A stretch of DNA of 63,900 bases, filler included, from Bigelowiella natans CCMP2755 (lineage: Eukaryota; Protista; Cercozoa): NCBI GenBank assembly GCA_000320545.1. It is 11 parts of 11 records of this genome, joined end to end, with 100 filler letters (N's around TTAATTAATTAA, not from the genome) between each part and the next. Parts side by side here need not be neighbours in the genome. Positions count along the whole stretch, not along the records: positions 44,975 to 50,195 come from ADNK01002915.1; 10 more parts are not named here. The stretch is one strand, 5' to 3'. Below are positions 27,200-48,162 of the stretch, one piece after another. Under the pieces are notes generated by a model that saw only the letters and a program-made list of their open reading frames with translations, was not told the DNA's origin and searched no databases. Position 1 is the stretch's first letter, and every line of letters starts with the position of its first letter. The translations under genes were made by a program, and so were the position numbers.

Positions 27200-28770
27200 G
27201 CAACGCAGTGTCACCCTTGCTTTGGGTCGCACGTGCGACGCAGTGCGTCGCCGGGAGGCTCCACCCAGGTCTCAGGACGTTGCGTGTCGCGAGTCGCGCA
27301 CGCAGTGGTGGACAACTGTGGCGTGCAAACTGAGCGCCACACTCGCCCCTCCCCTTCACAAGGAAGGAAAACCTGAACTTTGCGCGCGGTGCAATGCCTT
27401 TGCGCCCGTTCACTTGCTTCGTGGCCCAAGCGCTGGCGACGTTGACTTTTGCAAAGTTCAGCAATCGTGCGATGCGACGGCGCTTGAGGTTTTCTCCTCC
27501 TGCGCCTCGTGGGCTGTCGTTGTCACGAACTTCTTTTTTTGGAGTTGCACTGCGCCAGGGCGTGTGCCCTGCGTCGATGGTGTTCCACGAAGGAGGGGAC
27601 TTCTCTCCTTGGTCGTCGTCGCCAGGAAACTCTGGGGACAACTGGCTTGCCGCAAGGTTGCACGTTGCTTGGTCGTGGGGAGTCTGCTTTCTTGGCCTCC
27701 GCCGAGGGACTTTTCAGCTTGCCTCGCCAAGTGAAGAACTTCCTTCCACCACTTGTCCTCAACGCGCGCTCCTCGATGAGGCCAAAGGACACGAACTTCT
27801 TTGCACCTGCGCTTGCAGCCGAAGGTGACAAGTCCCGTCCTTTGCTCTCACCTCGCCAGCTCGACCGCTCAGGACCAGAGGAGAAAACGCCACCGCCGTG
27901 GCGTGGTGGTTGGAGCTGCACTTGTCAGCGTGACCGCAAGCAAACGAGCCAAACAACCACACGATCAGCGGTGGCAGCAGCAGCACTGGTTTCCCTGCTT
28001 CGTTCACGTTTTCTCACGAGTGGCTTTCCAAGGTCGTCCAGGTCCTTGAAGTGCACGTGGTGCACTCGCACTCCAATCATTCCATTGGAAACGCTTGCAG
28101 TGGCAGTGTTGGGGGCGGTGGTGGAGTTGGCTGCCTCTGAGGGTGGTTTGGTGGCTCCAGGGACTTTGAGCGTTTCCACGACAGTGGAGCAAGGGAGCCT
28201 GTCGGGAGGAACGGGCACAAAAAGGGAGGCTCACACTCGAGGGAGCGCGTCCCTCACCCGAAAAAGAGCTCCACTTCGAACAAAGTGTCGTCCTCGCTGG
28301 CTCGTGTGCTGGCTGGCGACGTCCAGTTTGGGTGCCGTCCACGAGGGCGCGCCGCCAGAGAGCCGGCCAGGAGGACGAAACTCTGCTCACTCTGGCGACG
28401 TGGTTGAACTTCCACGCAGGCACACCCCGCTGGCCCGAGAACGCCTTTGAAGTCGGAGGTGACACGCGGGCGAAGAGCAAGGAACTGCACCACTCGTTTT
28501 GTCTCGATTGGTGGAAACGGGAGGGAGGAAATCCTTGCACCTTGTTCGTTGCCCGTCGTCGTCGGCCAATGAGAGGAGTCGGGCAGCAAGGCTTGGGGTC
28601 TTGGTCAGTGCTCTTTTTGACTTTTTGTGACTCCGCAAAAGCAAGCAGTGCTCTTCCTCTCCTCCCGTTGAAAGCGCAAGAGCGGCAAACGGGGGTTCCA
28701 CGCCAGGGTTGTTCGTGAGCGCACTCTGCCTCTTCCAGTCCTTGGGGTGCACCAGCTGCCTCTTGCACCG
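27200..28770 (-). pseudogene. Copy 1 of unknown repeated gene unit (frameshifted, ~190-bp insertion)
   Basis: Fragments SLPFPPIETKRVVQFLAL..TSDFK, EDDTLFEVELFFG, NHHATAV and DDDQGEKSPPSWN align with the copies at 33480 and 35369; flanking non-coding sequence is also shared with copy 2. Confidence 0.75.
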
Positions 28771-28799
28771 AGGCGTTCAGAGCGGGCCGAAAACGACGG

Positions 28800-30500
28800 A
28801 GGAGTGTTGGAGTTGGACTGGGGAGGGGGAAGCAGGCTGGTGCACGCAGCAGGGGTGGTGACGGCTGAAGGAGCGATGGGAGCGAAGGGAGGCAATTGGC
28901 TGTCTCAGTTCTCTGTGACGACGTTCAACTCGTTTGCATCGCACGTGCGCGCAGCACGAGTTGCACACCACCGTGCTGGTTGGGCGAAAGGACCTGGAGT
29001 GCGTGCGTGGCGTCGTGCTTCTGGCGAGGCAGGAAGGCACGCTGCTTCTTTCCCCGACACAACCAAACGAGGGAGCTGCAGCGTGTGCGTGCATTGGGCA
29101 CAAGTGGGTGACCTTCGTTTCTTGCTCCTGCTTGCCTTTGCATGGCTTGTGGTTGGGATTGTTGACAGCACTTTTCCACTTCAGGAATTCGTGATGGTCC
29201 TTCGCACACTGTCGGCACTCGGAAGCGCAGTGTCCTGTCTTGTTGCAGGCCCAGCAGACTTGATCTCGGGCATTGCGGTTTCGTTTGTTTCGTTTCCAGT
29301 TGTTCTCTGCCGGACAGTTGTGGCCACTTCCTTGGTCGCAGTGCTGGAGTGGCGGTCTTGTTGATGATCACACTGGCGGTCTCGTTGATGACCATGAGAA
29401 CGCTCTCGTTTTGAATTGCGACCGCGTCCTCGTCCGCGTCCACGCCCGCGTCCGCGCCCACGTCCGCGACCACGTTGTGGAGGGCAATGCGGCCCATCTC
29501 GATTGTTGTGGTTGTCGCAAGTGCAGGTCGGGCGAGCGCATTCGTCGTGATGTTGGGGCTCAGCAGGGGGAGGGCAGAAGCCTTTTCCACCAGCACGTTG
29601 TTTCTCCAAGTGTTGGAAGAACAGCTTGAGTTCTTTGCTTTTGTCTTCTTTCGGCTTTTCTTGCTTGGTGTTGCAACTGGATTGGTTGATCTTCTCTCTT
29701 TGTTTCAGGAGGCGCTTGAGATCTTGAGCGGCTGCAGTGAAGGTGTCACGTTTCTTGTCACTCAACGCCATTGCGATCACTGAGCAGTCGTGAACGGGCT
29801 TCAAGGAGGAAGTCAAACGGTGAACTTCCTCTTCGAGCGTTGGCTCAGCTCCGTTCTGGCGCAGTGCGTTGTGCAGTTCGCTGATCCGCGCTGCCAACTT
29901 TCCAGGGTCATCCCCAAAGTCTTTCACGTTGAGCTCCTGGAGTTTCTCTCGCGTGATGGAGGTGGCGTCGGGACCATCGCCCCCAAATTCCAACACGAGG
30001 GCTGACCAGACAGCAGCAGCTTCGTTCCTGTCTTCCTTTGCGCAGTTGTGAGTCTCAGTTGTGAGTCTTGGGGAGGGCCTGAGTGACCACGGAGAAGGCA
30101 AGGTCGCGCTGCTTCTTGGTCGAGTTTCCTTGGGAGACTGCTGAAGCTTGGTCCTTGGGAGTCTGGCTCAAGAGGCAAGTTCTGGCTTCTTTGGAGTCAA
30201 GAACTGAGAGCATCTCCTGTTCGCCTTGTGGCTTGTTGACCATCGTCTTCGTGGAGTCGAAGACGTTGAATTCTTTCATGGTTTCTTGCAGCTCTCTGAG
30301 GAATGGGAGCTGGGTTGCATCATCGAAGGTTGGAGGCTTGGTTTTCACAGCCTTGACTCTGGCGATCACGCTCGCAAGTTCTTTGAAGCTTGCGGAGGCT
30401 TCGTCGTTCTTCGAGTCCACGGCGGCTCCATCGGGGCGAGAGCCATTGGTGCGAGAGCTGGAGGATCGGGTCATTCTTGAGATGCAGCGGAAGCAAAGTT
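28800..30500 (-). mobile_element. gag: Ty1/Copia gag (decayed), with CCHC zinc knuckle
   Basis: AAAVWSALVLEFG..REKLQELNVKDFGDD..RISELHNALRQNG (Copia gag-like), RG-rich tract, CWACNKTGHCASEC knuckle (~29216-29257); 13-bp tandem duplication CAGTTGTGAGTCT (30043-30068) causes a frameshift; PBS directly upstream. Confidence 0.8.
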
Positions 30501-30511
30501 GGCTCACAACC

Positions 30512-30747
30512 TGTCAGAAGCACCAGCAGCAAAGAGGGCGATGCGGCGGCGGCTAGCTGGGTGGCGGACAACAAAGGAGGCAAGTGCAAGACGGCTGGTG
30601 GGCGGTCTCAATTCTGTGTTCAAGGAGAACGCAGTTGCACGCGCGTGCAGCACAGTTTTGCGTGTGCTGCCAGAGGAAGTGAACTTGATGATCGCGTGCC
30701 GCAACACGACACGTTGCACGATGTTGTGTTGCCATGTCGCACCGACA
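30512..30747 (-). mobile_element. Single Copia LTR (236 bp) between pol and gag, followed by PBS (30501-30511)
   Basis: Minus strand TGTCGG...CTGACA termini, immediately followed by GGTTGTGAGCC, resembling the Copia half-tRNA-iMet PBS GGTTATG(A/G)GCC; purine-rich tract upstream. Confidence 0.65.
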
Positions 30748-30749
30748 CG

Positions 30750-32600
30750 TTCGCCTTGCGCTCCTGCTTGTCGCTGCTTCTGCAGCAACCGCTTGTCGCA
30801 CTTCGGCGAACGCTCGCTGACTGCACGTCGCATGTTCACTCTTCGGACATTGAGTGCCAAGCACTCTGACGTTCCCTGTTCGACGTCTTCCTTCACATCG
30901 TCACCACCAGGTGGAGCGATCGAATTGTCTGCACCTGAGGTGTCGTTGTCCTTGTTGTCACTGTCATCGTTTTTTGTGGTCACGATTGGCCAATTGGGAG
31001 CAGAGGCGGTTGTGCAATGGCCATTGCGGCGTGCATGGCCACAAGGCAGTGCATCGTGTGCAAGCTGATGGAGCGCTGTGCTGGGCACGCCTTGGCCCGG
31101 GCACAATGGCAGACAACACCGTGCACCAAGAGCTTCATCTCGAGCTCACGTTGAACGACATCTCACCTTGCAAAACCCTGGGCGACAGCGCATTCTCCAA
31201 GTCCGAGCACTTGGTCAGACCAGAAACAAAGCAAGAGACGTCAGCTCGCACCAGCGCCACAGGTGTGAAGGAGGCCACGGTGAGAAACAAACGTTTGAGC
31301 AGCACTCGCACAGCAGCAGAGTGGGGCGTGCGTGACATGCGAAAGTTCAGCACTTTTTCGAGTCTGTTTCCGACAGACAAGGGTGCTGCGCTGTTGGTGT
31401 GGAGCACTGTTTGTCACTCACACAACGTCGTGTGCAGACCAGAAAACGTGAACCAAACGCGCAACGTGTTTTGGGCCGACAACGTTCACTGATCACAATC
31501 CTGTGCCATTTTTCAACTTGTCCAAACTTTGTCTGCACTCTGCCTGGCTCGTGTCGCCGTTGTCAAGCATCGTGCGCAGTGACCTCACACTTCTGCCTGC
31601 ACTCTGCCATTGATGCGGATGTGCTTGCTTTGTCGACGCCAGTGGCCCTGCTGCGTCCATCACCACCCACGTTGAACGATTGAGTGTGCGTTTGCTTGGC
31701 CGTGATGAGTGCCATTTTGCTCAGCACTGCCCCCACAATGGCCCCCGTGTCCAATGCTTCCTGCCGTTGTTGTCACGAGCTCCTTCCCGGGGTGAATCGT
31801 TTCTCGCCACGGTCGTCGCTCTTTTTTTTCACTTGGCAGTCACTTCACGAGTTCACGAAAGGAGTGGCACGGACGTCTTCGTGTGCTTTGTCCGCCTTGG
31901 AGCTGGTCACGCGTCCGGACTCACTCGTGCACCAGTGAAAACCTGTCCGACCATCGCAGCTCAACACGCGAACGTGTTCAGCACGATCGAGAACGTGCTC
32001 ACTCTTTCGTTTTTCTTCAGGTGCAAAGAAAACGCCAACGCACCCGAAGGCGGCTGTGTGGGCCACCGAGAGGCTCTCAGTTTCGACACTCTCAAGCAAG
32101 CACAACGGCGTTCTTCTGACCTGTTTGTTGTGTGACCTGATTGTTGCGTGTCCTGCGTGCTGCACAGCCCAGCACCAGGAGCGTGCAGGAAGTCCGGATT
32201 GCTTGAGGTTGGCTCGCACTCTTCTCAGCAAGGTTTGCATCGTGCGTTCGGACGTGCCGTTTTGTTGTTGTCGACGAGGCGTTGGTGGAGTGTGCAACGT
32301 TCCTCCATCGTCAAGGAACTTGAGCAGAGGTTTGATTCTGTGCACTTTCTCCACGTCAGACCTGAACTCCACTGTGGAGACCTTCCCTTGCTTTTTTGCA
32401 AACTCCACGCAAGCCTTTGCCTTGTTGGGTGCCTCTGACTTGGGCTCAAGCAGCCCTGCTCTCAGGTGCCTGGGAGGCTCGTGCACAAGTGCTGCAAAGC
32501 GTTTGCACCCCCTTGGACTTCGTGGCACAGTCTCAACGTCGCTCGTTTGTGCACTCCTTGGCGTGCAGGTGCAGTGCTCGACAGTTCACTTGGCAGGGGT
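30750..32600 (-). mobile_element. pol: Ty1/Copia pol remnant: integrase core followed by heavily deleted RT/RNase H
   Basis: SDVE..GCKRF..FRSD..QQNGTSERTMQTL..R..LKQSGLP..WCWAVQHAGH..FGC is a Copia integrase core. Downstream VRADVSCFVSGLTK and VKEDVEQG resemble RT-RH remnants (weak). INT precedes RT, as in Copia. Confidence 0.85.
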
Positions 32601-33479
32601 TGGGGTTTGTGCAGGTCGTCGTCTTCGGAGGGAGTTGAACCCTCCCCTGCCGTCGCAGGGCAGCCCCCGCGGGGCTGTGGGGTTTTCGAAAACTGAGCAA
32701 GCTTTTCCCGCGCCGCGGAACCTGGTGCAGCAAGCAATGAAAAAAAAAAAAAAAAAAAAGATGCCCCCGAAGCACCTTCAAGAAAGTTCAGGAATTTTCA
32801 TCCTGGAATTGCCACTGATGGGTTTGACCAACAATGGCGCCCGGCTGCTGTCTTTTTCCGCTTGGAGGCGGCTGCTTTGCGGTCTCCTTGTGCCCCCGCT
32901 GGTCAATCGGCCGCCCCAGCAGCCAAGGCACCAACGGGGACATCCCCGAGGGTGCATGCCGTGGAGTCTGGGACCCCTGCATGCTGCACAAAGCAAGCGA
33001 GGCAGGGGAGAAAGACAAGCATGCAATGCTGCTCTCTTCTCTCGCCCCCTGCGCCGCCCATGGCAACACGCGGGCCAAGGACCTTCGTGCGTGCCCCCAA
33101 AGTGTGTTTTCACATGGCGCAGGGGATTTCACGAAAATCAGCGCCAATTTCACGCGGAATCGCTGAAAGCGACCTGAAAGGTGCTCATTGGGTGCCAAAA
33201 TGGCCGTGTTTGGTGCTGCGACAACGGCAGAGCCCAAAATTTTTGACAAAAAATCGCCAAGGGGCATGGCACGATGGCCGCCTGAGTTGACATGACCCTT
33301 CTCCGGCCGATGACACGCACCAAAGTGACCCACACAGGCGTTCTCTGACGTCAACTGGCGCTTGCAGCACACCTCCTGGGTCACAAGAGGAACATCCCTG
33401 ATTGGCGAGACTGTTCGCGGTCTGGAGAGGGTTCCTCTTGTGTCTTTTCATCCCACGTCACTCCCGGCCCTTTCCTGTG

Positions 33480-34760
33480 ACTCTGAGAAGAGCTGCTGCA
33501 CCCAAAAGCGGCTCCACGTCACCACGAACAACCCCCTTTCTGCTTTCAGGGTCAACAAAGGAAGCACTGGCTGCTCTTTGCGGTTTCAAAACTCAAGCTG
33601 ACCAGTGACCAAGAAGTGCGAACTCATCAACCGACCCTTCCTTCCGCCAACAAGCATGGACAACGAACAAGCAGCAAGGACTTCACCCCTTCCTTTCCCA
33701 GCAATCGCAATGGAGCGAGCAATGCGTTTCCTTGCACTCCATCCGTGTGTGACTTCAGACTTCAAGGCGGTCCTTGACGTGTGGAAGTTCACCCACACCG
33801 CCAAGGTGACCGGAGTGTCGTTCTTCCAGCCAACTCTCTCTCAACGAGTCCTCGTTGACGGCAAGGAGAGCTCACGTGGCCAATTGCCCCACGAAGACGA
33901 GACATTGTTCGAGGTCAGGCTGTTCTTTGGAGAAGGAACGCACAAACACGAGTGCGAGCCCACCTTCTTGGGACCGCTCCAGCCCACGGGCTCCGCTGCT
34001 CCTCTCGCGGAGGCACTCCAGGCTGGCAGGTGCCCGGATCCACTCTGGCATTGTGCGGTCGTGGAGCTCGTTCGTCAGGGGACACTCGGACAACTGCAGC
34101 TCCAACCACCACGCGACAGCGGTCGTGTTTCGTTCTGAGTGGTCAAGGGAGCAAAGGAAAGGACCCATCACCTTCGGCTGCAAGAGGAGATGCAAGAAGC
34201 TTTGTGTCCTCCGGCCTCATCGAGGAGCTTGTTTGGAGGACGAAAAGTGGCTGGAGGTTCTCCGCTTGGCAAGGCAAGCTGAAAAGGAGGAGCACGAAGC
34301 CAAAGAAGACGAGTGGGCACGAGAGGCGATGTGCAACCTTGCAAAGAGTGAACCATCGCCCGAGCTTTTCGACGACGACGACTCGTTTGACGAGAAGTCT
34401 CCTCCTTCTCGCAACGCAGAATCGACACCGTGGTGCAGTGGGTGCACAGAGTCAAAGTCTTCAAACGCTGACAGTCCAAGCTGGCAAGGAGCCCAAAGCA
34501 AGTGACATTGAAGCGGTGCCGCAATGCACGACAAGTCAATTTCAAAAAGTTCATCACCGCTTCTCACTTTGTTGAGAACAACTTGCACACGGAAAAGACA
34601 TCGAGCATTGCGCAAAGTGCAACCAACCTTTTTTGTGAAGGGGGCGGGGTGTGGCGCTCACTCTGCCCGCCACAGCGTCCCACCTTGTGTGCGACTCGCG
34701 ACACACAACGTCCTGAGCCGTCCCCTGGCGACGCGCTGCGTCGCATGCGTGGAACGGTCT
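33480..34760 (+). pseudogene. Copy 2 of unknown repeated gene unit (frameshift ~34025)
   Basis: ORFs 33605-34138 and 33855-34505: PLPFPAI..FLALHP..TSDFKAVLDVW..EDETLFEV.LFFG..FLGPL..NHHATAVVFRSEWSR..ITFGCKRRCKKL. Inverted relative to copy 1. Confidence 0.75.
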
Positions 34761-35368
34761 GAGAACGTGCAGCTCGCTGCTCTTGTGTTCTTGGAAAGTT
34801 CTTTCGTTCTTCCTTGGACCAGCGCGTTCTTGGACAAGTCCAGGAACTGTCACAGAACGTTCTGCACGACACAGTGTTCGTGCAGCACGACAAAGGCGTC
34901 GGAACGACGCACAGTGAAAAAACAACGCATGGTTGCATTGCAGGTGAAAGCTTTCTCGGAGCCGCACGCGCAACTTGTGCCTGCTTGCATGCAAACACAA
35001 CTCAAAAGACAACACAACTCAAACACCACAACTGCAAACAACAGTTCAAGTTTCATCAACGCTTTCATGAGTCACGCTCAACCGCCACTTGTTGACGCAG
35101 CAGCGATGCATGCGTGCACCCCAATGCCCGATTCAGCGCAGGACGACAAAATCGTGGATCGCTGTCTCGACAGGCCCGGTGCAAAGCAGGCACGGGAACC
35201 TCCTGTCGGCAGGGCCACGTCTCTCAACTCGTCAGCTGAGAGCAAATGCGTGCTCGGCACATCCCCATTGGCACACGCCGCTGACGAGGGCGATGTGCAC
35301 TCCAGAGTGAGCGCGACAACTCCCCTGCGCCCCAGCTGACCCACGCAACCTTTTTTTCGCCGACAACG

Positions 35369-36150
35369 ATGAACACCAGTCCAAGAACCCCTGTTCCCTC
35401 CCTGCCGTTCCCACCCATCGAAACAAAGAGGGTGATGCAGTTCCTTTCTCTGCACTCTTGCACGACTTCCGACTTCAAGGCCGTCCTCAGTGTCTGGCGG
35501 CTCAACCACATCGCCAGGGCGACTGGAACCTCGATTTTCCGCCCAGCTCTTTCGCGGCGGGTCCTGCAGGATGGCAGCGAAAGCAACCGGTTCCAGCCGG
35601 AACACGAAGACACGACTCTTTTCGAGATCGAGCTCTCGTTTGGGGGAGGAACTCACACACGTGAGTGTCCCCTGAGCTTCTTGGGTCCTCTCCTCCCAAC
35701 GGACTCCCTCGTGCCGGTGGCGAAGACTCTCCAAGTCCCAGGAAGCGTTGTGTGGACTTGGAGCTCCTTTGTCAATGGTCACGCTGACAATTGCAACTTG
35801 AACCACCACGCCACGGGAGTGGTGTTCTCTTCTGAGTGGTCCAGGGATGGCAAGGGAGGCTGGGTGACCTTTGGCTGCAAGAGGCGCTGCAAGAAACTTT
35901 TGTGTGCTCCGCCCACACCGTGGGGCGTGCACACCTGACGTGCACTGGCAGCGCGTTCTCAGGAGTGCAAGAGTCGAAGAAGACAAAGAGGCCAAAGCAG
36001 AGGAAGAAGGGGGCACTGTGCAAAGCTCTTGCCACTTGGCAACCGTCTGCAATGCTCCCCTTGAATTGGTCGACGACGATGACTTTGACGAAAAAGGCTC
36101 TCCGCTCAGAAACACGATTGACACAGGGAACACGCCTTGGTCGGGGACTG
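35369..36150 (+). pseudogene. Copy 3 of unknown repeated gene unit
   Basis: ORFs 35369-35938 and 35871-36275 carry the same motifs (SLPFPPIETKRV, TSDFKAVL, TTLFEIELSFG, NHHATGVVFSSEWSR, VTFGCKRRCKK, ELVDDDDFDEK). Confidence 0.75.
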
Positions 36151-37089
36151 AGTGGGTGTCCTCGCTCCCGTGGCAATCACCACTTCACTTGTTCTTGTCG
36201 CGCTGTGCGTGTGCGTCGTGCAACCAGCCAACAGGTGCGCTGCTGGCTGATGCTTGCATTCGAACGTTGATGTGATCGATGCCATTGAAAACAAAACACC
36301 AAAACCCTGATGATGAAAATGCATTGTGAGGAGCTTGAGCATGCATGCCAAAACAAGCTCCCAAGAGGATGTCACCGCTCGCACGCGGGTCTTTTGACTT
36401 TTTGTCCACGATCACCACTGCGCTGCTCGAGTGTGTGATGAGTGTGTGAGCACGAGTGTCTGGGTGTGACAAGTGACGAAGTGCGCAAGTGCAACGCACA
36501 AGTTGTTTCAACGCACGACCACTCGCGAAAACGTTTCAAATTGCTTGCAAACAGTTCCACAGAAAAGTGTTTGCAAACACTCTTTCTTGTTCGAACGTTG
36601 TTTGAACAAAACCAAGCATCAGTTTCGTGACGTGTGGGCATTGTTTGTTCAAGTCAAGTGCTCGTTCAGAAAATGCAAAAGTGTTTCCAAACGAAAAAAA
36701 ACGTTTGTGCCCAGCTCCACCAGTTTGTCCAACCAACAACTTGATTGTCATCAATTGGTGTTTGATTGACGTCGTTGAACGTCGATTGAATTGAGTTGAT
36801 CAGTGCTGGTTGACTCAGGCAGTGCTTGTCAACACTGATCAACCTCACATCAACGCTGGCCGCTCCAATTGTGGCGGACAAGGCTAGGGGGTTGCACTTG
36901 AGTTGCACGGCTTGCACGTGTGTGCACAACAGGGCTGAGTGGGTTGATTTTGATGGACGTCCAACTTTGCATGCCAGCTTGCGTGCCATGTGGCGAGCTT
37001 GCTGCTGAAGTGCAATTTCGTTGCGCTTGTCACAGCAGTCATGCATTGCAACAAGTGCACCATCAGACTGGAAAGTGATGCAGAGAGAG

Positions 37090-44874: not shown

Positions 44875-44999
44875 NNNNNNNNNNNNNNNNNNNNNNNNNN
44901 NNNNNNNNNNNNNNNNNNTTAATTAATTAANNNNNNNNNNNNNNNNNNNNNNNNNNNNNNNNNNNNNNNNNNNNCTACAGGGCATACACACATGATGGG

Positions 45000-47342
45000 A
45001 TGGCGTCTGTGTTGTGGGTGTTTGTGTTTGTGTATGTGGATGATGACATAATATGTACCAACACAGTCGTCGCTCAGATCTTCCTCCTGGAAAATATATT
45101 TATTAGGTTTGCACACTTCGGTTTTACTATTAGACTGCAGAAGTGTACATTCCTAGCTACAAGAATCAAGTGGTGTGGATATTACCTGGAGCAAGGCCGC
45201 ATCACCCCAAACCCCGAGAAAGTAGCAGCACTACAGCAAGCCCCTAAACCTAAGAATGCAAAGGAGTTAAAGTCATTCTTGCAGACTGCAGCTTGGATAC
45301 TACGTAGGTTCTCCCCTACCTACGCTAGGACTGCAGCTGCTTTTACTACTGCTTACCGGAAGGAGAACTCTGTAGGCCTCAGCTTCGCTAAGGTGTGGGC
45401 CAAGGCTGGCCTTGATGCCCACTTCGATAACCTAATAAAGTTATGCAGCAACACCCTATTGAATGCTAAGCTAGACACTACTAGACCAGCTACCCTATGG
45501 ACAGACTGGTCTAAGCTAGGTATGGCTGCTGTACTTACCCAAGACCAGCAGATCATACGGGTGTGGGGCAGGGCCTGCACAGCAGCTGAGGCCAAGTACA
45601 GCCCTACAAAAGGAGAGTATAAAGCCATGACTGAGGCGCAGAGGAAACTAAGATACTACCTGCTGTCGGTGCCCAGCTTCACCTTAATGACTGACCACAA
45701 GCCCCTCCTAGGCATCGACCGCAAGCTCGAAGCGCCTAACGATGAGTATGCAGCTATGAGGGCGGACACGGAAGAGTTTAGGGACAAGAGGACAGTGGTC
45801 TACGCACCAGGAGACAAGCAGCTTGCTGACTATTTCAGCAGGCTGTTCGAAAAGAAAGTCCCTACCCAGGTCACCCCTATGGTTAACGCGATTACCTTCG
45901 AGGACGGCGACTTCCTGCCTGAGCCAGAGGAGCTCCAGCACCTTCAAGAACACCTGGATAAATACAAACACAAGCATGAGGTACTTAGTGATAGGATATA
46001 TGTATACACTAATAATGTTAGGCGTACCTACGTGCCACGGCGGACCAGGGGAGCCCTTCTCTTTACCGCCCATGGACCTGCACACGTAGGAGAAAACCAT
46101 ATCACTGCTCTACTCTACCATTACTACTGGCCCTACAAGCTAAAAGAGATAAGGACATACCTGCGTGGCTGCAGGTGCTCCAGCTTGAAGGCGGCAGGCG
46201 TCGCCACCAAGGAGTCCAGCAAGAGCCGTGCATCTAAGAAAATCAAAGCAAGGAACTTCTTAGATATCGTGCAAATTGATGTTTATAAGTACGATGGCTA
46301 TCACTACCTTACCTTCGTTGATGTGGCCACTGGAAAGTGCTGGGTTAAAAAGATTATCAAGGTCAACGTTGCTAAGAAGAACAAAGGCTTATATAAGCAG
46401 AGGCTTACTAACTGCTACCGTACCTGGGAGTCTGAGCTCCAGGCTATCCCTGATGAAGTTAGCATAAACAAGATACCAAAGAAGTTACATGTGGATAATG
46501 AGACCTCTCTTCTACAGCTACCACACCCTAATATTGATGCCTCACCTGTATACTATGCCCAGTCCAACTCCAAGGTAGAGCGACTCCACCGCACCTTGGC
46601 CAACCTAAGCAGGATAAATAGCACCACACCAGACAAGATACAAGGGTTAGTAAACGACACCTTCACGTCTGGGGGAGGTATCAAGGATAAGGAGAGGGAA
46701 GAAGGCGACGACAACGACGACGATACCGAGAGCGAAGACGAGAAGGTCCCGTACGATGGCCGAGTTCTAAAGGAAGGACAGTATGTTAGGGCCAAGGTAA
46801 ATCTGAGATCGAGAAATAAACAAGACCCCTTCTGGGGTGGCGTTGCAAAGGTTACCGAGAGGAAGGGGAGGAAGCAGTACTACATCTATGATGGGAACAG
46901 GGTCACCTTGCGCCACATCAGTCACCTAAAGAATTATGATATCGGTGAGAAGCTCCTAGAGGATGTTAAAGTAAACCCTACTGTGTGGGAGCGAGCAATG
47001 CCTTGTTTAGGACCCCGACCTAAGTTCGATGTGGAATATGGAAACAATAAGGTCAGGGTGAACGACGATTGGCGCATGAAGATTGTCTATCTAGGCTACC
47101 CTGGATTACGAAATATGGAGAGGGTAGCTATGAAAATAAAGGACGGAAAATATCAGCTACTCTACCTAGCTGTTCCCGACTTACCCTTTGAGCACTGGTA
47201 TAAGGTCCTGGGGGACCTTGATGCAGAGGGCTGGTATGGACACGAACCTAAGGACGAAGGTGAGTTCTGGGTAAGCGACAAAGGAGATAAGGTTAGAGAG
47301 GAATCTATTACCTGGTGGTTGGTGAAGTTCCGAAAGCGATGA
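45000..47342 (+). CDS. pol: Ty3/Gypsy pol (RT C-term, RNase H, integrase, GPY/F-like region, C-terminal Dam-like domain); 5' end lost at gap
   Basis: YVDD (RT), LWTDWSKLGMAAVLTQ and FTLMTDHKPL (RNase H), AHGPAHVG..CRC (zinc finger), VQID/HVDN/SNSKVERLHRTL (DDE). Domain order RT-RH-INT; uninterrupted 780 aa. Confidence 0.92.
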   Translation: MASVLWVFVFVYVDDDIICTNTVVAQIFLLENIFIRFAHFGFTIRLQKCTFLATRIKWCGYYLEQGRITPNPEKVAALQQAPKPKNAKELKSFLQTAAWILRRFSPTYARTAAAFTTAYRKENSVGLSFAKVWAKAGLDAHFDNLIKLCSNTLLNAKLDTTRPATLWTDWSKLGMAAVLTQDQQIIRVWGRACTAAEAKYSPTKGEYKAMTEAQRKLRYYLLSVPSFTLMTDHKPLLGIDRKLEAPNDEYAAMRADTEEFRDKRTVVYAPGDKQLADYFSRLFEKKVPTQVTPMVNAITFEDGDFLPEPEELQHLQEHLDKYKHKHEVLSDRIYVYTNNVRRTYVPRRTRGALLFTAHGPAHVGENHITALLYHYYWPYKLKEIRTYLRGCRCSSLKAAGVATKESSKSRASKKIKARNFLDIVQIDVYKYDGYHYLTFVDVATGKCWVKKIIKVNVAKKNKGLYKQRLTNCYRTWESELQAIPDEVSINKIPKKLHVDNETSLLQLPHPNIDASPVYYAQSNSKVERLHRTLANLSRINSTTPDKIQGLVNDTFTSGGGIKDKEREEGDDNDDDTESEDEKVPYDGRVLKEGQYVRAKVNLRSRNKQDPFWGGVAKVTERKGRKQYYIYDGNRVTLRHISHLKNYDIGEKLLEDVKVNPTVWERAMPCLGPRPKFDVEYGNNKVRVNDDWRMKIVYLGYPGLRNMERVAMKIKDGKYQLLYLAVPDLPFEHWYKVLGDLDAEGWYGHEPKDEGEFWVSDKGDKVREESITWWLVKFRKR

Positions 47343-47393
47343 AGGTCTAAGGGAATAAGGAAGGAAGGAAGGAGCAACGTGACTTGGGGGAGG

Positions 47394-47719
47394 TGTAGCG
47401 CGTACCACTACGCGGGCACAAGTCACGTGCGACAACAAAGGGGTTGTCGCGGATATAGAATATAGATAACGTAGATATTAATACAGCATAGGCACGTGGG
47501 TTCCGGCGGGACTCATGGCAGCACACCGGAAGTGTGCTGCCCCACGTGCGGCGGCATTCGCGAAAGCTTCGCGAATGATTACGCAGTGCACGATTTAATA
47601 AAAATATAATCTTTAATAAAAATAAACACAACTCTTCAAAAGGAAGCAAACGTGCCTTTCCCCCCCCCTGCCTACTTGTGCACGTAGCGCCTCGGCCTGT
47701 GAACACCTTACGCGCAACA
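47394..47719 (+). mobile_element. 3' LTR of the Gypsy element (326 bp), preceded by polypurine tract
   Basis: Purine-rich tract after the stop ending GGGGGAGG, then TGTAGCGCGTA...TACGCGCAACA (10/11 terminal inverted repeat, TG..CA); internal AATAAA motifs. Confidence 0.8.
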
Positions 47720-48162
47720 ACCTCAAGATTCAAGATTCGTTCCCTTCATGATTCAAGACCTCGAAGAAAATGTGGGTGGACTCTGGGTGGAGTTGTTGCT
47801 TCGAAGTACAGCAGACATCTCACAATTCGAGTGCGGTGACTAATTCGTATTTACAGCTGTCGCAGCACTGAAATTGATCCCTTTTTCTACATGGATTCGC
47901 TTGCACTGCTGCTTGGATTCATTCTTGAATGAATCCTTGGCGAGGGATGTGGCGGAAGTCGGATCTTTTGGCATTGAAAGTATGTCGCGGGATAAAAAAT
48001 AAGGGCATTTTTGCCCAGGGAGTGGATGTAGTTGTACTTTGACCCCTTGAACCCCTTCACTTTCCATCCCCACCCTCGTCCCGGCGATACACCTGAGGAC
48101 GGGAAATCTGGAAACGTGGCCACGGAAATATTTCTTTCCAAGTTTTAGAGGGCTAGGAAAGG

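What the first reader, a model, noticed from the sequence alone, without database searches (positions are those of the whole stretch)
46938..47342. Gypsy pol ends in a degenerate Dam-like N6-adenine methyltransferase domain
Seen: after the integrase and GPY/F-like region, where chromodomains usually sit, the ORF continues EDVKVNPTVW..LGPRPKFDV..DDWRMKIVYLGYPGLRNMERVAMKI..LLYLAVPDLPFEHWYKVLGDL. Knowledge: this parallels the phage Dam-like MT domain of DIRS retrotransposons (GP..IDLFA..W....Y.(N/F)PP..I.RVL.KI....ILV.P.W...W...L). Here the catalytic NPP(Y/F) is replaced by GYPG and the SAM-binding segment is shortened. Inference: an inactive or repurposed adenine-binding module in an LTR retrotransposon. 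Speculatively it could guide integration or counter an adenine-directed host mutator.
Basis: partly seen in the sequence, partly recalled or inferred. Interest (0 to 1): 0.72.

Follow-up and report, generated by a model that had tools for sequence, protein, structure and literature searches.

The report
Dead adenine-methylase domain on retrotransposon integrase
A young, multi-copy gypsy-type jumping gene of a marine alga ends in a domain predicted to fold like a DNA adenine methylase, whose usual catalytic motif is missing in all 43 relatives scanned, so it is likely a non-enzymatic helper and a new variant of a kind of element first described in 2026.

Summary
Observation confirmed. Window 46938-47342 is the last 134 residues of a Ty3/gypsy-type pol (RT end, RNase H, integrase, SH3-like), followed by a polypurine tract and a 326-bp LTR. 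Identical proteins carry Bigelowiella natans labels. Sequence libraries miss the domain. An MSA-based AlphaFold model (pLDDT 95) matches phage N6-adenine methyltransferases (Foldseek E to 2e-6) and PCIF1, and the family profile matches DIRS-type MT domains (hhalign E 5e-5; 0 of 250 shuffles as high). The 39 aligned relatives (24-39% identity) keep the domain. None of 43 has [NDS]PP[YFW]; Gly starts the motif in 29 of 36; the SAM-side segment is about 12-18 residues short. Best reading: a conserved pseudo-methyltransferase acting as a nucleic-acid-binding accessory of the integrase (inferred, 0.5). DAM-LTR elements are already described (bioRxiv 2026), and this scan noted degenerate ones in other genomes. 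New here: a separate clade with a fixed G-Y-P-G motif, a shortened integrase core, and a host with a TpA mutator. That mutator also hits this family (16 of 18 changes in one copy), which argues against a protective role.

The parts
44976..47342 (+). 3' part of a Ty3/gypsy-type pol ORF (788 codons + stop); 5' part lost in an assembly gap
   Evidence: a 5420-base contig of run X1 matches 44976-47723 with 0 differences; identical gene models give gag and protease upstream
45018..45185 (+). C-terminal end of reverse transcriptase (YVDD at 45033-45044)
   Evidence: Pfam RVT_1 E 8e-4, below the curated cut-off because truncated
45420..45722 (+). RNase H
   Evidence: Pfam PF17917 E 9.7e-15, PF17919 E 1.3e-10
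46032..46175 (+). Integrase zinc-binding domain
   Evidence: Pfam PF17921 E 0.0012
46260..46660 (+). Shortened integrase core; D 46278-80, D 46494-96, E 46578-80; second D to E is 28 residues
   Evidence: 28 in the 9 of 10 family proteins that the pattern matched against 35-36 in the 9 of 23 outgroup Ty3-like proteins that the pattern matched; residue assignment by motif inspection
46749..46937 (+). SH3-like C-terminal domain of the integrase
   Evidence: profile match to eL21 E 0.003; 34-52% identical in 9 long relatives
46938..47342 (+). Dam/DIRS-MT-like domain, predicted minimal Rossmann fold, catalytic motif replaced (the finding)
47028..47030 (+). Asp aligned with the motif-I Asp of DIRS-type MT domains
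   Evidence: aligned; Asp in 25 of 35 rows
47094..47105 (+). G-Y-P-G at the place of NPPY
   Evidence: register from hhalign to phage Dam; the DIRS alignment shifts it by one residue; tally
47386..47393 (+). Polypurine tract abutting the LTR
   Evidence: sequence
47394..47719 (+). 3' LTR, 326 bp, TG...CA, 11-bp terminal inverted repeat with one mismatch
   Evidence: sequence; contigs with other flanks leave at 47393/47394 and 47719/47720; no second LTR in the window

Best explanation
The domain is a DIRS/Dam-derived methyltransferase fold at the end of the pol protein of a young Ty3/gypsy-type element, and it is likely a catalytically dead module that selection keeps as a nucleic-acid-binding accessory of the integrase. 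Shown: position, homology, predicted fold, loss of the catalytic motif across the family, retention across deep divergence. Inferred: it cannot transfer a methyl group, because no Asn/Asp/Ser/His is left to activate adenine N6 in either alignment register and the SAM-side segment is cut by about 12-18 residues. Inferred: it stays attached to the integrase, as it follows the SH3-like domain without a linker, where chromodomains sit in chromoviruses (recalled). Inferred and untested: it uses the remaining base pocket and conserved tryptophans to grip DNA or RNA (the element's own cDNA or transcript, or target chromatin), tethering or steering the integration complex.
For: Fold and homology: top three PDB rows PCIF1/CAPAM, E 0.01-0.02, probability 0.97-0.98; best Z 6.8, rmsd 4.1, 117 aligned, PCIF1; next rows KsgA/Erm-type methyltransferases; ESM Atlas best cluster carries PF05869 on 14% of members, score 0.86, a lead only; 1 of 40 relatives hits Pfam Dam, E 0.032. 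Loss of motif: 0 of 43 family proteins hold [NDS]PP[YFW]; first position Gly 29, Ala 3, Ser 2, Asn 1, Trp 1 of 36. Constraint: Pro86 40 of 40, Trp93 39 of 39, Trp132 39 of 39, Trp105 37 of 38, Trp/Phe117 39 of 39 (numbering from 46920); identity to 9 long relatives 28-37% in this domain against 39-53% in the integrase core. Literature: DIRS1 MT domains called likely inactive and proposed to bind template transcripts (PMC4738411, passages read); representative eukaryotic DAMs added no 6mA in E. coli (bioRxiv 10.64898/2026.05.21.726589, whole main text read).
Against: No binding or activity was measured. I could not inspect model coordinates, so a pocket is not shown. The C-terminal 42 residues, which hold most family-specific tryptophans, do not match Dam or DIRS profiles on their own, so their link to the ancestral base pocket rests on a non-significant forced global alignment. 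VIA-align Z is below 8, which the tool calls middling. The domain evolves faster than RNase H and the integrase core. A protein-protein or folding role explains the conservation equally well. Insertion sites were not analysed (no genome held).
Confidence: 0.5

Rival explanations
1. Dead enzyme with a structural or protein-binding job: it would stabilise or oligomerise the unusually short integrase, or dock it on a host protein such as RNA polymerase II machinery, without touching bases.
For: The clade that carries the domain also has a shortened integrase core (D to E 28 against 35-36); invariant tryptophans that are not matched in Dam/DIRS profiles; PMC4738411 proposes PCIF1 mimicry for DIRS MT domains.
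Against: The motif-IV Pro (34 of 36) and motif-I Asp (25 of 35) are retained, which fits a kept ligand site better than a bare scaffold. Co-occurrence in one clade is a single event and shows no dependence.
Confidence: 0.22
2. Still an active adenine methyltransferase with a non-canonical motif, marking new copies with 6mA as proposed for DAM-LTR elements.
For: Confident fold like N6-adenine methyltransferases; motif-I Asp kept in 25 of 35; two aligned relatives have S-F-P-L/F and one N-Y-V-G; DAM-LTR copies are 6mA-enriched in other hosts.
Against: Gly in place of the residue that bonds adenine N6 (role as described in PMC4738411) in 29 of 36; the stacking aromatic is Gly in 33 of 37 in the phage-Dam register; SAM-side segment 12-18 residues shorter than in Dam and DIRS domains.
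Confidence: 0.1
3. Counter-defence: the domain would cover or mimic TpA adenines and so shield the element from the host's TpA>TpG/CpA mutator.
For: The mutator is reported in B. natans (bioRxiv 10.64898/2026.01.13.699255, parts 1-3 of 5 read). In this window 26229-36884 holds one TpA and transposon remains, while this element keeps a TpA ratio of 1.15 and 17 gene models are 99-100% identical in the domain.
Against: A copy of the same family (P0047) has 16 of 18 amino-acid changes explained by TpA transitions, against 4.5% of possible missense changes. 8 of 46 family proteins examined have no tyrosine at all. Youth alone explains the intact copies. Degenerate Dam-like domains were noted by this scan in gypsy elements of other genomes (unchecked), so degeneracy need not be tied to this mutator.
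Confidence: 0.08
4. A functionless relic of a captured DIRS domain, carried along at the end of pol.
For: Catalytic motif lost; lowest identity among the pol domains in most comparisons.
Against: Kept at about the same length and with several invariant residues in relatives only 24-39% identical, whose RT-RNase H branches are 0.4-0.7 changes per site long; a free C-terminal tail would be easy to lose.
Confidence: 0.05

Closest known systems
DAM-LTR retrotransposons (Fernandez-Moreno et al., bioRxiv 10.64898/2026.05.21.726589; whole main text read, figures and supplements not seen)
   Same: Ty3/gypsy-type element with a DIRS-related Dam domain in pol; small sheet-and-helix fold of about five strands; unicellular eukaryote host.
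   Different: The paper reports Asn-Pro-Pro in almost all sampled DAMs; here it is absent from all 43 proteins. Its five lineages are chlorophyte, chlorophyte-ochrophyte, ichthyosporean, Pyropia and Euglena; Bigelowiella, Rhizaria, Cercozoa and chlorarachn- have 0 occurrences in the main text. The best family member scores only E 0.032 on Pfam Dam, so a screen at 1e-5 would likely miss it. Shortened integrase core. I had no DAM-LTR sequences, so kinship to those lineages was not tested.
MT (Dam-like) domain of DIRS1-type tyrosine-recombinase retrotransposons
   Same: Best sequence-profile match (E 4.7e-5, 96 columns; 11-row subsamples score 24-40, median 30, against 18 for 11 phage Dams); C-terminal position in pol; described as likely inactive (PMC4738411).
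   Different: Here it follows a DDE integrase and SH3-like domain, not RNase H; about 18 residues shorter between motifs I and IV; G-Y-P-G motif; C-terminal third with its own tryptophan pattern. My DIRS-type set was selected by two motifs and is identified by context (59 of 79 have an RNase H end motif in frame upstream; 8 of 10 tested hit Pfam Dam weakly).
Phage DNA N6-adenine methyltransferase, Pfam PF05869 (T1-type Dam)
   Same: Best structural matches in BFVD; the strand-4 to helix region aligns with the NPPY region.
   Different: All 11 phage proteins aligned keep NPP; sequence-profile similarity is weak (E 0.025).
PCIF1/CAPAM cap-specific adenosine N6-methyltransferase
   Same: Best solved-structure match by Foldseek and VIA-align; same clade as DIRS MT according to PMC4738411.
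   Different: 5-10% identity; PCIF1 is a large active RNA enzyme with a WW domain.
Chromovirus chromodomain (functional analogy, recalled)
   Same: Extra domain at the C-terminus of a Ty3/gypsy integrase.
   Different: Unrelated fold; targeting is not shown for this domain.

Membership tests
Ty3/gypsy-type LTR retrotransposon | pol order protease-RT-RNase H-integrase | tested here: met
   (full-length relatives P0020, P0079)
Ty3/gypsy-type LTR retrotransposon | LTR with TG...CA ends and polypurine tract | tested here: met
   3' LTR 47394-47719 and PPT; 5' LTR lies beyond the gap
Ty3/gypsy-type LTR retrotransposon | canonical D,D(35)E integrase spacing | tested here: not met
   D to E 28 in 9 family proteins against 35-36 in 9 outgroup proteins
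Ty3/gypsy-type LTR retrotransposon | placement inside a named Ty3/gypsy clade | tested here: inconclusive
   7 family rows form one side of a long 100/100 branch against 23 unnamed Ty3-like hits; unrooted, no reference clades
DAM-LTR | Dam/DIRS-MT-homologous domain encoded in an LTR element | tested here: met
DAM-LTR | Asn-Pro-Pro triplet conserved | tested here: not met
   0 of 43; tally
DAM-LTR | membership of one of the five described lineages | not testable with these tools
   no sequences of those lineages were available; supplements closed
DAM-LTR | host has AMT1 and element copies carry extra 6mA | not testable with these tools
   no genome or methylation data; B. natans not named in the main text of PMC12695648 (term search)
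Active N6-adenine methyltransferase (PF05869 / PCIF1 group) | Rossmann-type SAM methyltransferase fold | tested here: met
   predicted model
Active N6-adenine methyltransferase (PF05869 / PCIF1 group) | [DNSH]PP[YFW] after strand 4 | tested here: not met
Active N6-adenine methyltransferase (PF05869 / PCIF1 group) | intact SAM-binding segment (motifs I-III) | tested here: inconclusive
   motif-I Asp kept in 25 of 35 but the segment is 12-18 residues short; SAM binding not modelled
Active N6-adenine methyltransferase (PF05869 / PCIF1 group) | Pfam PF05869 score above the curated cut-off | tested here: not met
   no hit for the window's domain; best relative 14.4 bits against 28.1
DIRS1-type retrotransposon | MT directly after RNase H, tyrosine recombinase instead of DDE integrase | tested here: not met
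   a DDE integrase lies between RNase H and the domain

The most novel reading that the evidence does not exclude
A retrotransposon clade turned a captured adenine methylase into a non-catalytic adenine reader on its integrase, and uses it in an arms race with the host's TpA adenine mutator: it reads adenine state in chromatin to place new copies where the mutator does not act, or masks the cDNA's TpA sites. The shortened integrase and the dead Dam fold would be one co-evolved targeting unit, the adenine counterpart of the chromodomain.
Probability: 0.12. Interest if true: 0.82.

Novelty: new variant of a known kind. Interest (0 to 1): 0.42.

Why it matters
The 2026 preprint proposes that retrotransposon Dam domains work by methylating adenine, while earlier work called the DIRS domains dead. 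Here a whole, still mobile-looking clade has kept the fold after losing the catalytic motif, which argues that the domain has a job that needs no methyl transfer. The host is a cultured alga with a young, multi-copy, apparently transcribed family and a newly reported adenine mutator, so binding, insertion-site and 6mA tests are practical. It also shows that Pfam-based screens undercount such elements.

Tried and rejected
Single-sequence searches of the domain: nothing in Pfam, PHROGs, NCBIfam; only a chance collagenase row in PDB sequences; only E 0.7-3 rows in phage genomes; no usable ESM Atlas hit for the window's own sequence. Single-sequence AlphaFold failed (pLDDT 36) and was not used. 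Foldseek against PDB gave no row at E<=0.001. Forced global alignment to phage Dam is not significant (E 0.2), and the C-terminal 42 residues match neither Dam nor DIRS profiles. No DNA context for relatives was found in genome contigs or viral contigs; the family alignment had no stretch conserved enough for a locus scan, so dN/dS, LTRs and hosts of relatives remain open. No whole genome is held, so copy number and target sites were not measured. A homodimer prediction was not obtained, so self-association is untested. I considered a 5' truncation near 45040; rejected, since a run's contig matches from 44976 without a difference. I considered an antisense gene behind the spliced antisense forms; the longest ATG frame over all subsets of 10 introns is 130 codons, the same as unspliced. 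No tRNA gene in the window to test the primer-binding site. Literature searches; none listed a paper on this clade, but the library lacks most subscription journals and the preprint's figures and supplements were not visible.

Full report
What is there. The finding is the last 134 codons of an open frame running from an assembly gap at 44976 to a stop at 47342. Pfam finds the end of a reverse transcriptase, RNase H and an integrase zinc finger in that order. A DDE core follows, then an acidic linker, an SH3-like domain (profile match to eL21, E 0.003) and the domain in question. After the stop come a polypurine tract and a 326-bp LTR, 47394-47719; contigs of other copies leave the sequence at those ends. 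Three runs (X1, X7, X9) hold the element as a 5420-base contig, which in X7 and X9 closes on the LTR, so the whole element is about 5.7 kb. A search with the last 149 residues returned 17 proteins of 71 candidates, all 99-100% identical and all labelled as Bigelowiella natans gene models (species name); some supply the gag and protease missing here. An identical protein is in a transcriptome collection (P0096). This is a young, multi-copy Ty3/gypsy-type family of a chlorarachniophyte alga.

The family. A full HMMER scan of 1.84 billion representatives gave 47 hits at E<=0.001: 8 copies or near-copies, one at 67%, and 38 at 29-41% identity. I aligned those 38 plus P0020 with the window's domain (A2, 40 rows); P0054 and the near-copies were left out. 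The 9 long relatives I compared all carry the domain after the same integrase and SH3-like parts. Seven family RT-RNase H regions form one side of a long branch (100/100) against 23 other Ty3-like hits; the tree is unrooted and has no named reference clades. Of 30 proteins looked up, three are labelled B. natans (P0052, P0058, P0096), two more are unnamed transcriptome proteins, one sits in a bacterial metagenome bin (probably a stray contig, my inference), and the rest are unnamed metagenome or run proteins. The host range is therefore unknown.

Is it a Dam-like fold? Single-sequence searches say nothing. With the alignment, AlphaFold2 gives pLDDT 95.4, pTM 0.88. Foldseek on viral models returns 15 matches at E<=0.001 (best 2.1e-6, TMq 0.58-0.64); 5 are named DNA N6-adenine methyltransferases, one a methyltransferase, one a WW-domain protein, the rest unnamed or uncharacterised. 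On solved structures no row reaches E 0.001, but the top three are PCIF1/CAPAM; VIA-align also ranks PCIF1 first (Z 6.8, rmsd 4.1, 117 aligned), followed by KsgA/Erm-type methyltransferases, at Z values the tool calls middling. For a sequence test I collected DIRS-type MT domains from metagenome contigs with a two-motif pattern (120 loci, 93 in frame, 81 below 70% identity). 59 of 79 have an RNase H end motif in frame upstream, and 8 of 10 tested hit Pfam Dam weakly. The family profile aligns to them over 96 columns (probability 68%, E 4.7e-5). None of 250 shuffled profiles comes near, and masking the selecting motifs does not lower the score. Against 11 phage Dams the match is weak (E 0.025) but puts G-Y-P-G on N-P-P-Y; 11-row DIRS subsamples score higher (median 30 against 18), so the DIRS type is the closer of the two sets I had. 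One of 40 relatives hits Pfam Dam at E 0.032, and the ESM Atlas offers a partly Dam-labelled cluster as a lead.

Is it an enzyme? Probably not. None of 43 family proteins has [NDS]PP[YFW]. Among 36 rows covering the motif, GYPG occurs 15 times, and G-x-P-G variants with Phe, Trp, Cys, His or Arg 12 times more; the first position is Gly in 29. Cys, His and Arg are what TpA transitions make of Tyr codons. Two rows have S-F-P-L/F, closer to an ancestral motif. The register differs by one residue between the phage and DIRS alignments, but neither leaves the polar residue that bonds adenine N6 (role described in PMC4738411). The distance from the motif-I Asp to the conserved Pro is 24 residues against 40-46 and 34-51. 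Yet the domain is not decaying: one Pro and four aromatic positions are invariant or nearly so, and identity to long relatives is 28-37%, against 39-53% for the integrase core.

How it most likely works. A dead fold kept under constraint directly behind the integrase is best read as an accessory module. I put 0.5 on nucleic-acid binding that tethers or steers the integration complex or handles the element's own nucleic acid, 0.22 on a structural or protein-binding role (the clade's integrase core is 7-8 residues short between the second Asp and the Glu), 0.10 on non-canonical activity, 0.08 on shielding from the host mutator and 0.05 on a relic. All functional steps are inference; none was testable here.

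The host mutator. A preprint (10.64898/2026.01.13.699255; parts 1-3 of 5 read) reports TpA>TpG/CpA hypermutation of integrated viruses in B. natans and signs of it in transposons. The window shows the signature: one TpA between 26229 and 36884, in a stretch with a DDE_Tnp_4 transposase (E 3.8e-8) and a weak copia-type gag match. The element studied here has a TpA ratio of 1.15. But the family is not immune: in copy P0047, 16 of 18 changes in the domain are TpA transitions, against 4.5% of possible missense changes, and 8 of 46 family proteins lack tyrosine entirely. Youth is enough to explain the intact copies.

What is known. Fernandez-Moreno et al. (bioRxiv 10.64898/2026.05.21.726589; whole main text read; figures and supplements not seen) describe five DAM-LTR lineages, report the Asn-Pro-Pro triplet in almost all sampled DAMs, and found no activity in E. 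coli. The main text does not name Bigelowiella, Rhizaria, Cercozoa or chlorarachniophytes; its figure of taxa and its tables might. Iyer et al. (PMC4738411; six passages read) place DIRS MT domains with PCIF1 and call them likely inactive. Searches for this clade (listings only) showed no matching paper. Earlier notes of this scan list 57 findings with these words in at least 4 genomes, several with eroded motifs or a 3' position; none matched this sequence (unchecked).

Verdict. The element works like a DAM-LTR in architecture but fails the family's catalytic criterion; it is a new variant: a distinct clade with a fixed non-catalytic motif, a shortened SAM side and a shortened integrase, in a host with an adenine mutator. 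Interest 0.42; 0.82 if the domain proves to be an adenine reader that steers integration.

Noticed in passing
window 26229-36884 (to about 37500): About 10.6 kb with a single TpA and also few ApT (ratio 0.34-0.48), sharply bounded; holds a DDE_Tnp_4 transposase match (30854-31489, E 3.8e-8), a weak copia-type gag match (29181-30167, minus) and old repeats at 64-75% identity. Looks like a transposon graveyard edited to completion by the TpA mutator; the ApT loss was not mentioned in the parts of the preprint I read.
   Followed up: partly
window 45087-47184, minus strand: Many CT..AC joints in runs X15 (RNA by guess), X16 (RNA) and X10 (DNA by guess): ten refine to GT..AG introns on the strand opposite pol, with no long antisense frame. 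Likely spliced antisense RNA across the element, possibly part of silencing.
   Followed up: partly
window 46260-46660: Integrase core with 28 residues from the second Asp to the Glu in 9 family proteins, against 35-36 in outgroups, and a short C-terminal part; a clade feature that I did not search the literature for.
   Followed up: partly
window 47720-47723: The four bases after this 3' LTR equal the four bases that follow the LTR in other contigs just before a TGG-starting primer-site-like sequence; chance (1 in 256) or unprocessed end.
   Followed up: no
window 45000-47750 in runs X1-X14: Runs filed under eleven different organism codes hold 97-99% of the element's words; the three laid from studies P1, P3 and P4 hold it without flanks. 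Could be carry-over from a very abundant sequence or mislabelling; unexplained.
   Followed up: no
window 44976-47719 in run X15: Summed contig depth of several hundred thousand on the element against 285 on the flank; if the run is RNA the element is very highly transcribed, but the tool warns that this depth is a poor measure.
   Followed up: no
window 51320-52534, minus strand: Intronless-looking protein kinase ORF, 403 codons, Pfam Pkinase E 4.5e-30.
   Followed up: no
window 47424, 47493, 47543: Three CACGTG palindromes within the 326-bp LTR, none in the pol part; possible promoter elements.
   Followed up: no
proteins P0052, P0021, P0058: Other, older B. natans families of the same clade (33-40% identity in the domain), all without a single tyrosine, so the host has met and edited this clade repeatedly.
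   Followed up: partly
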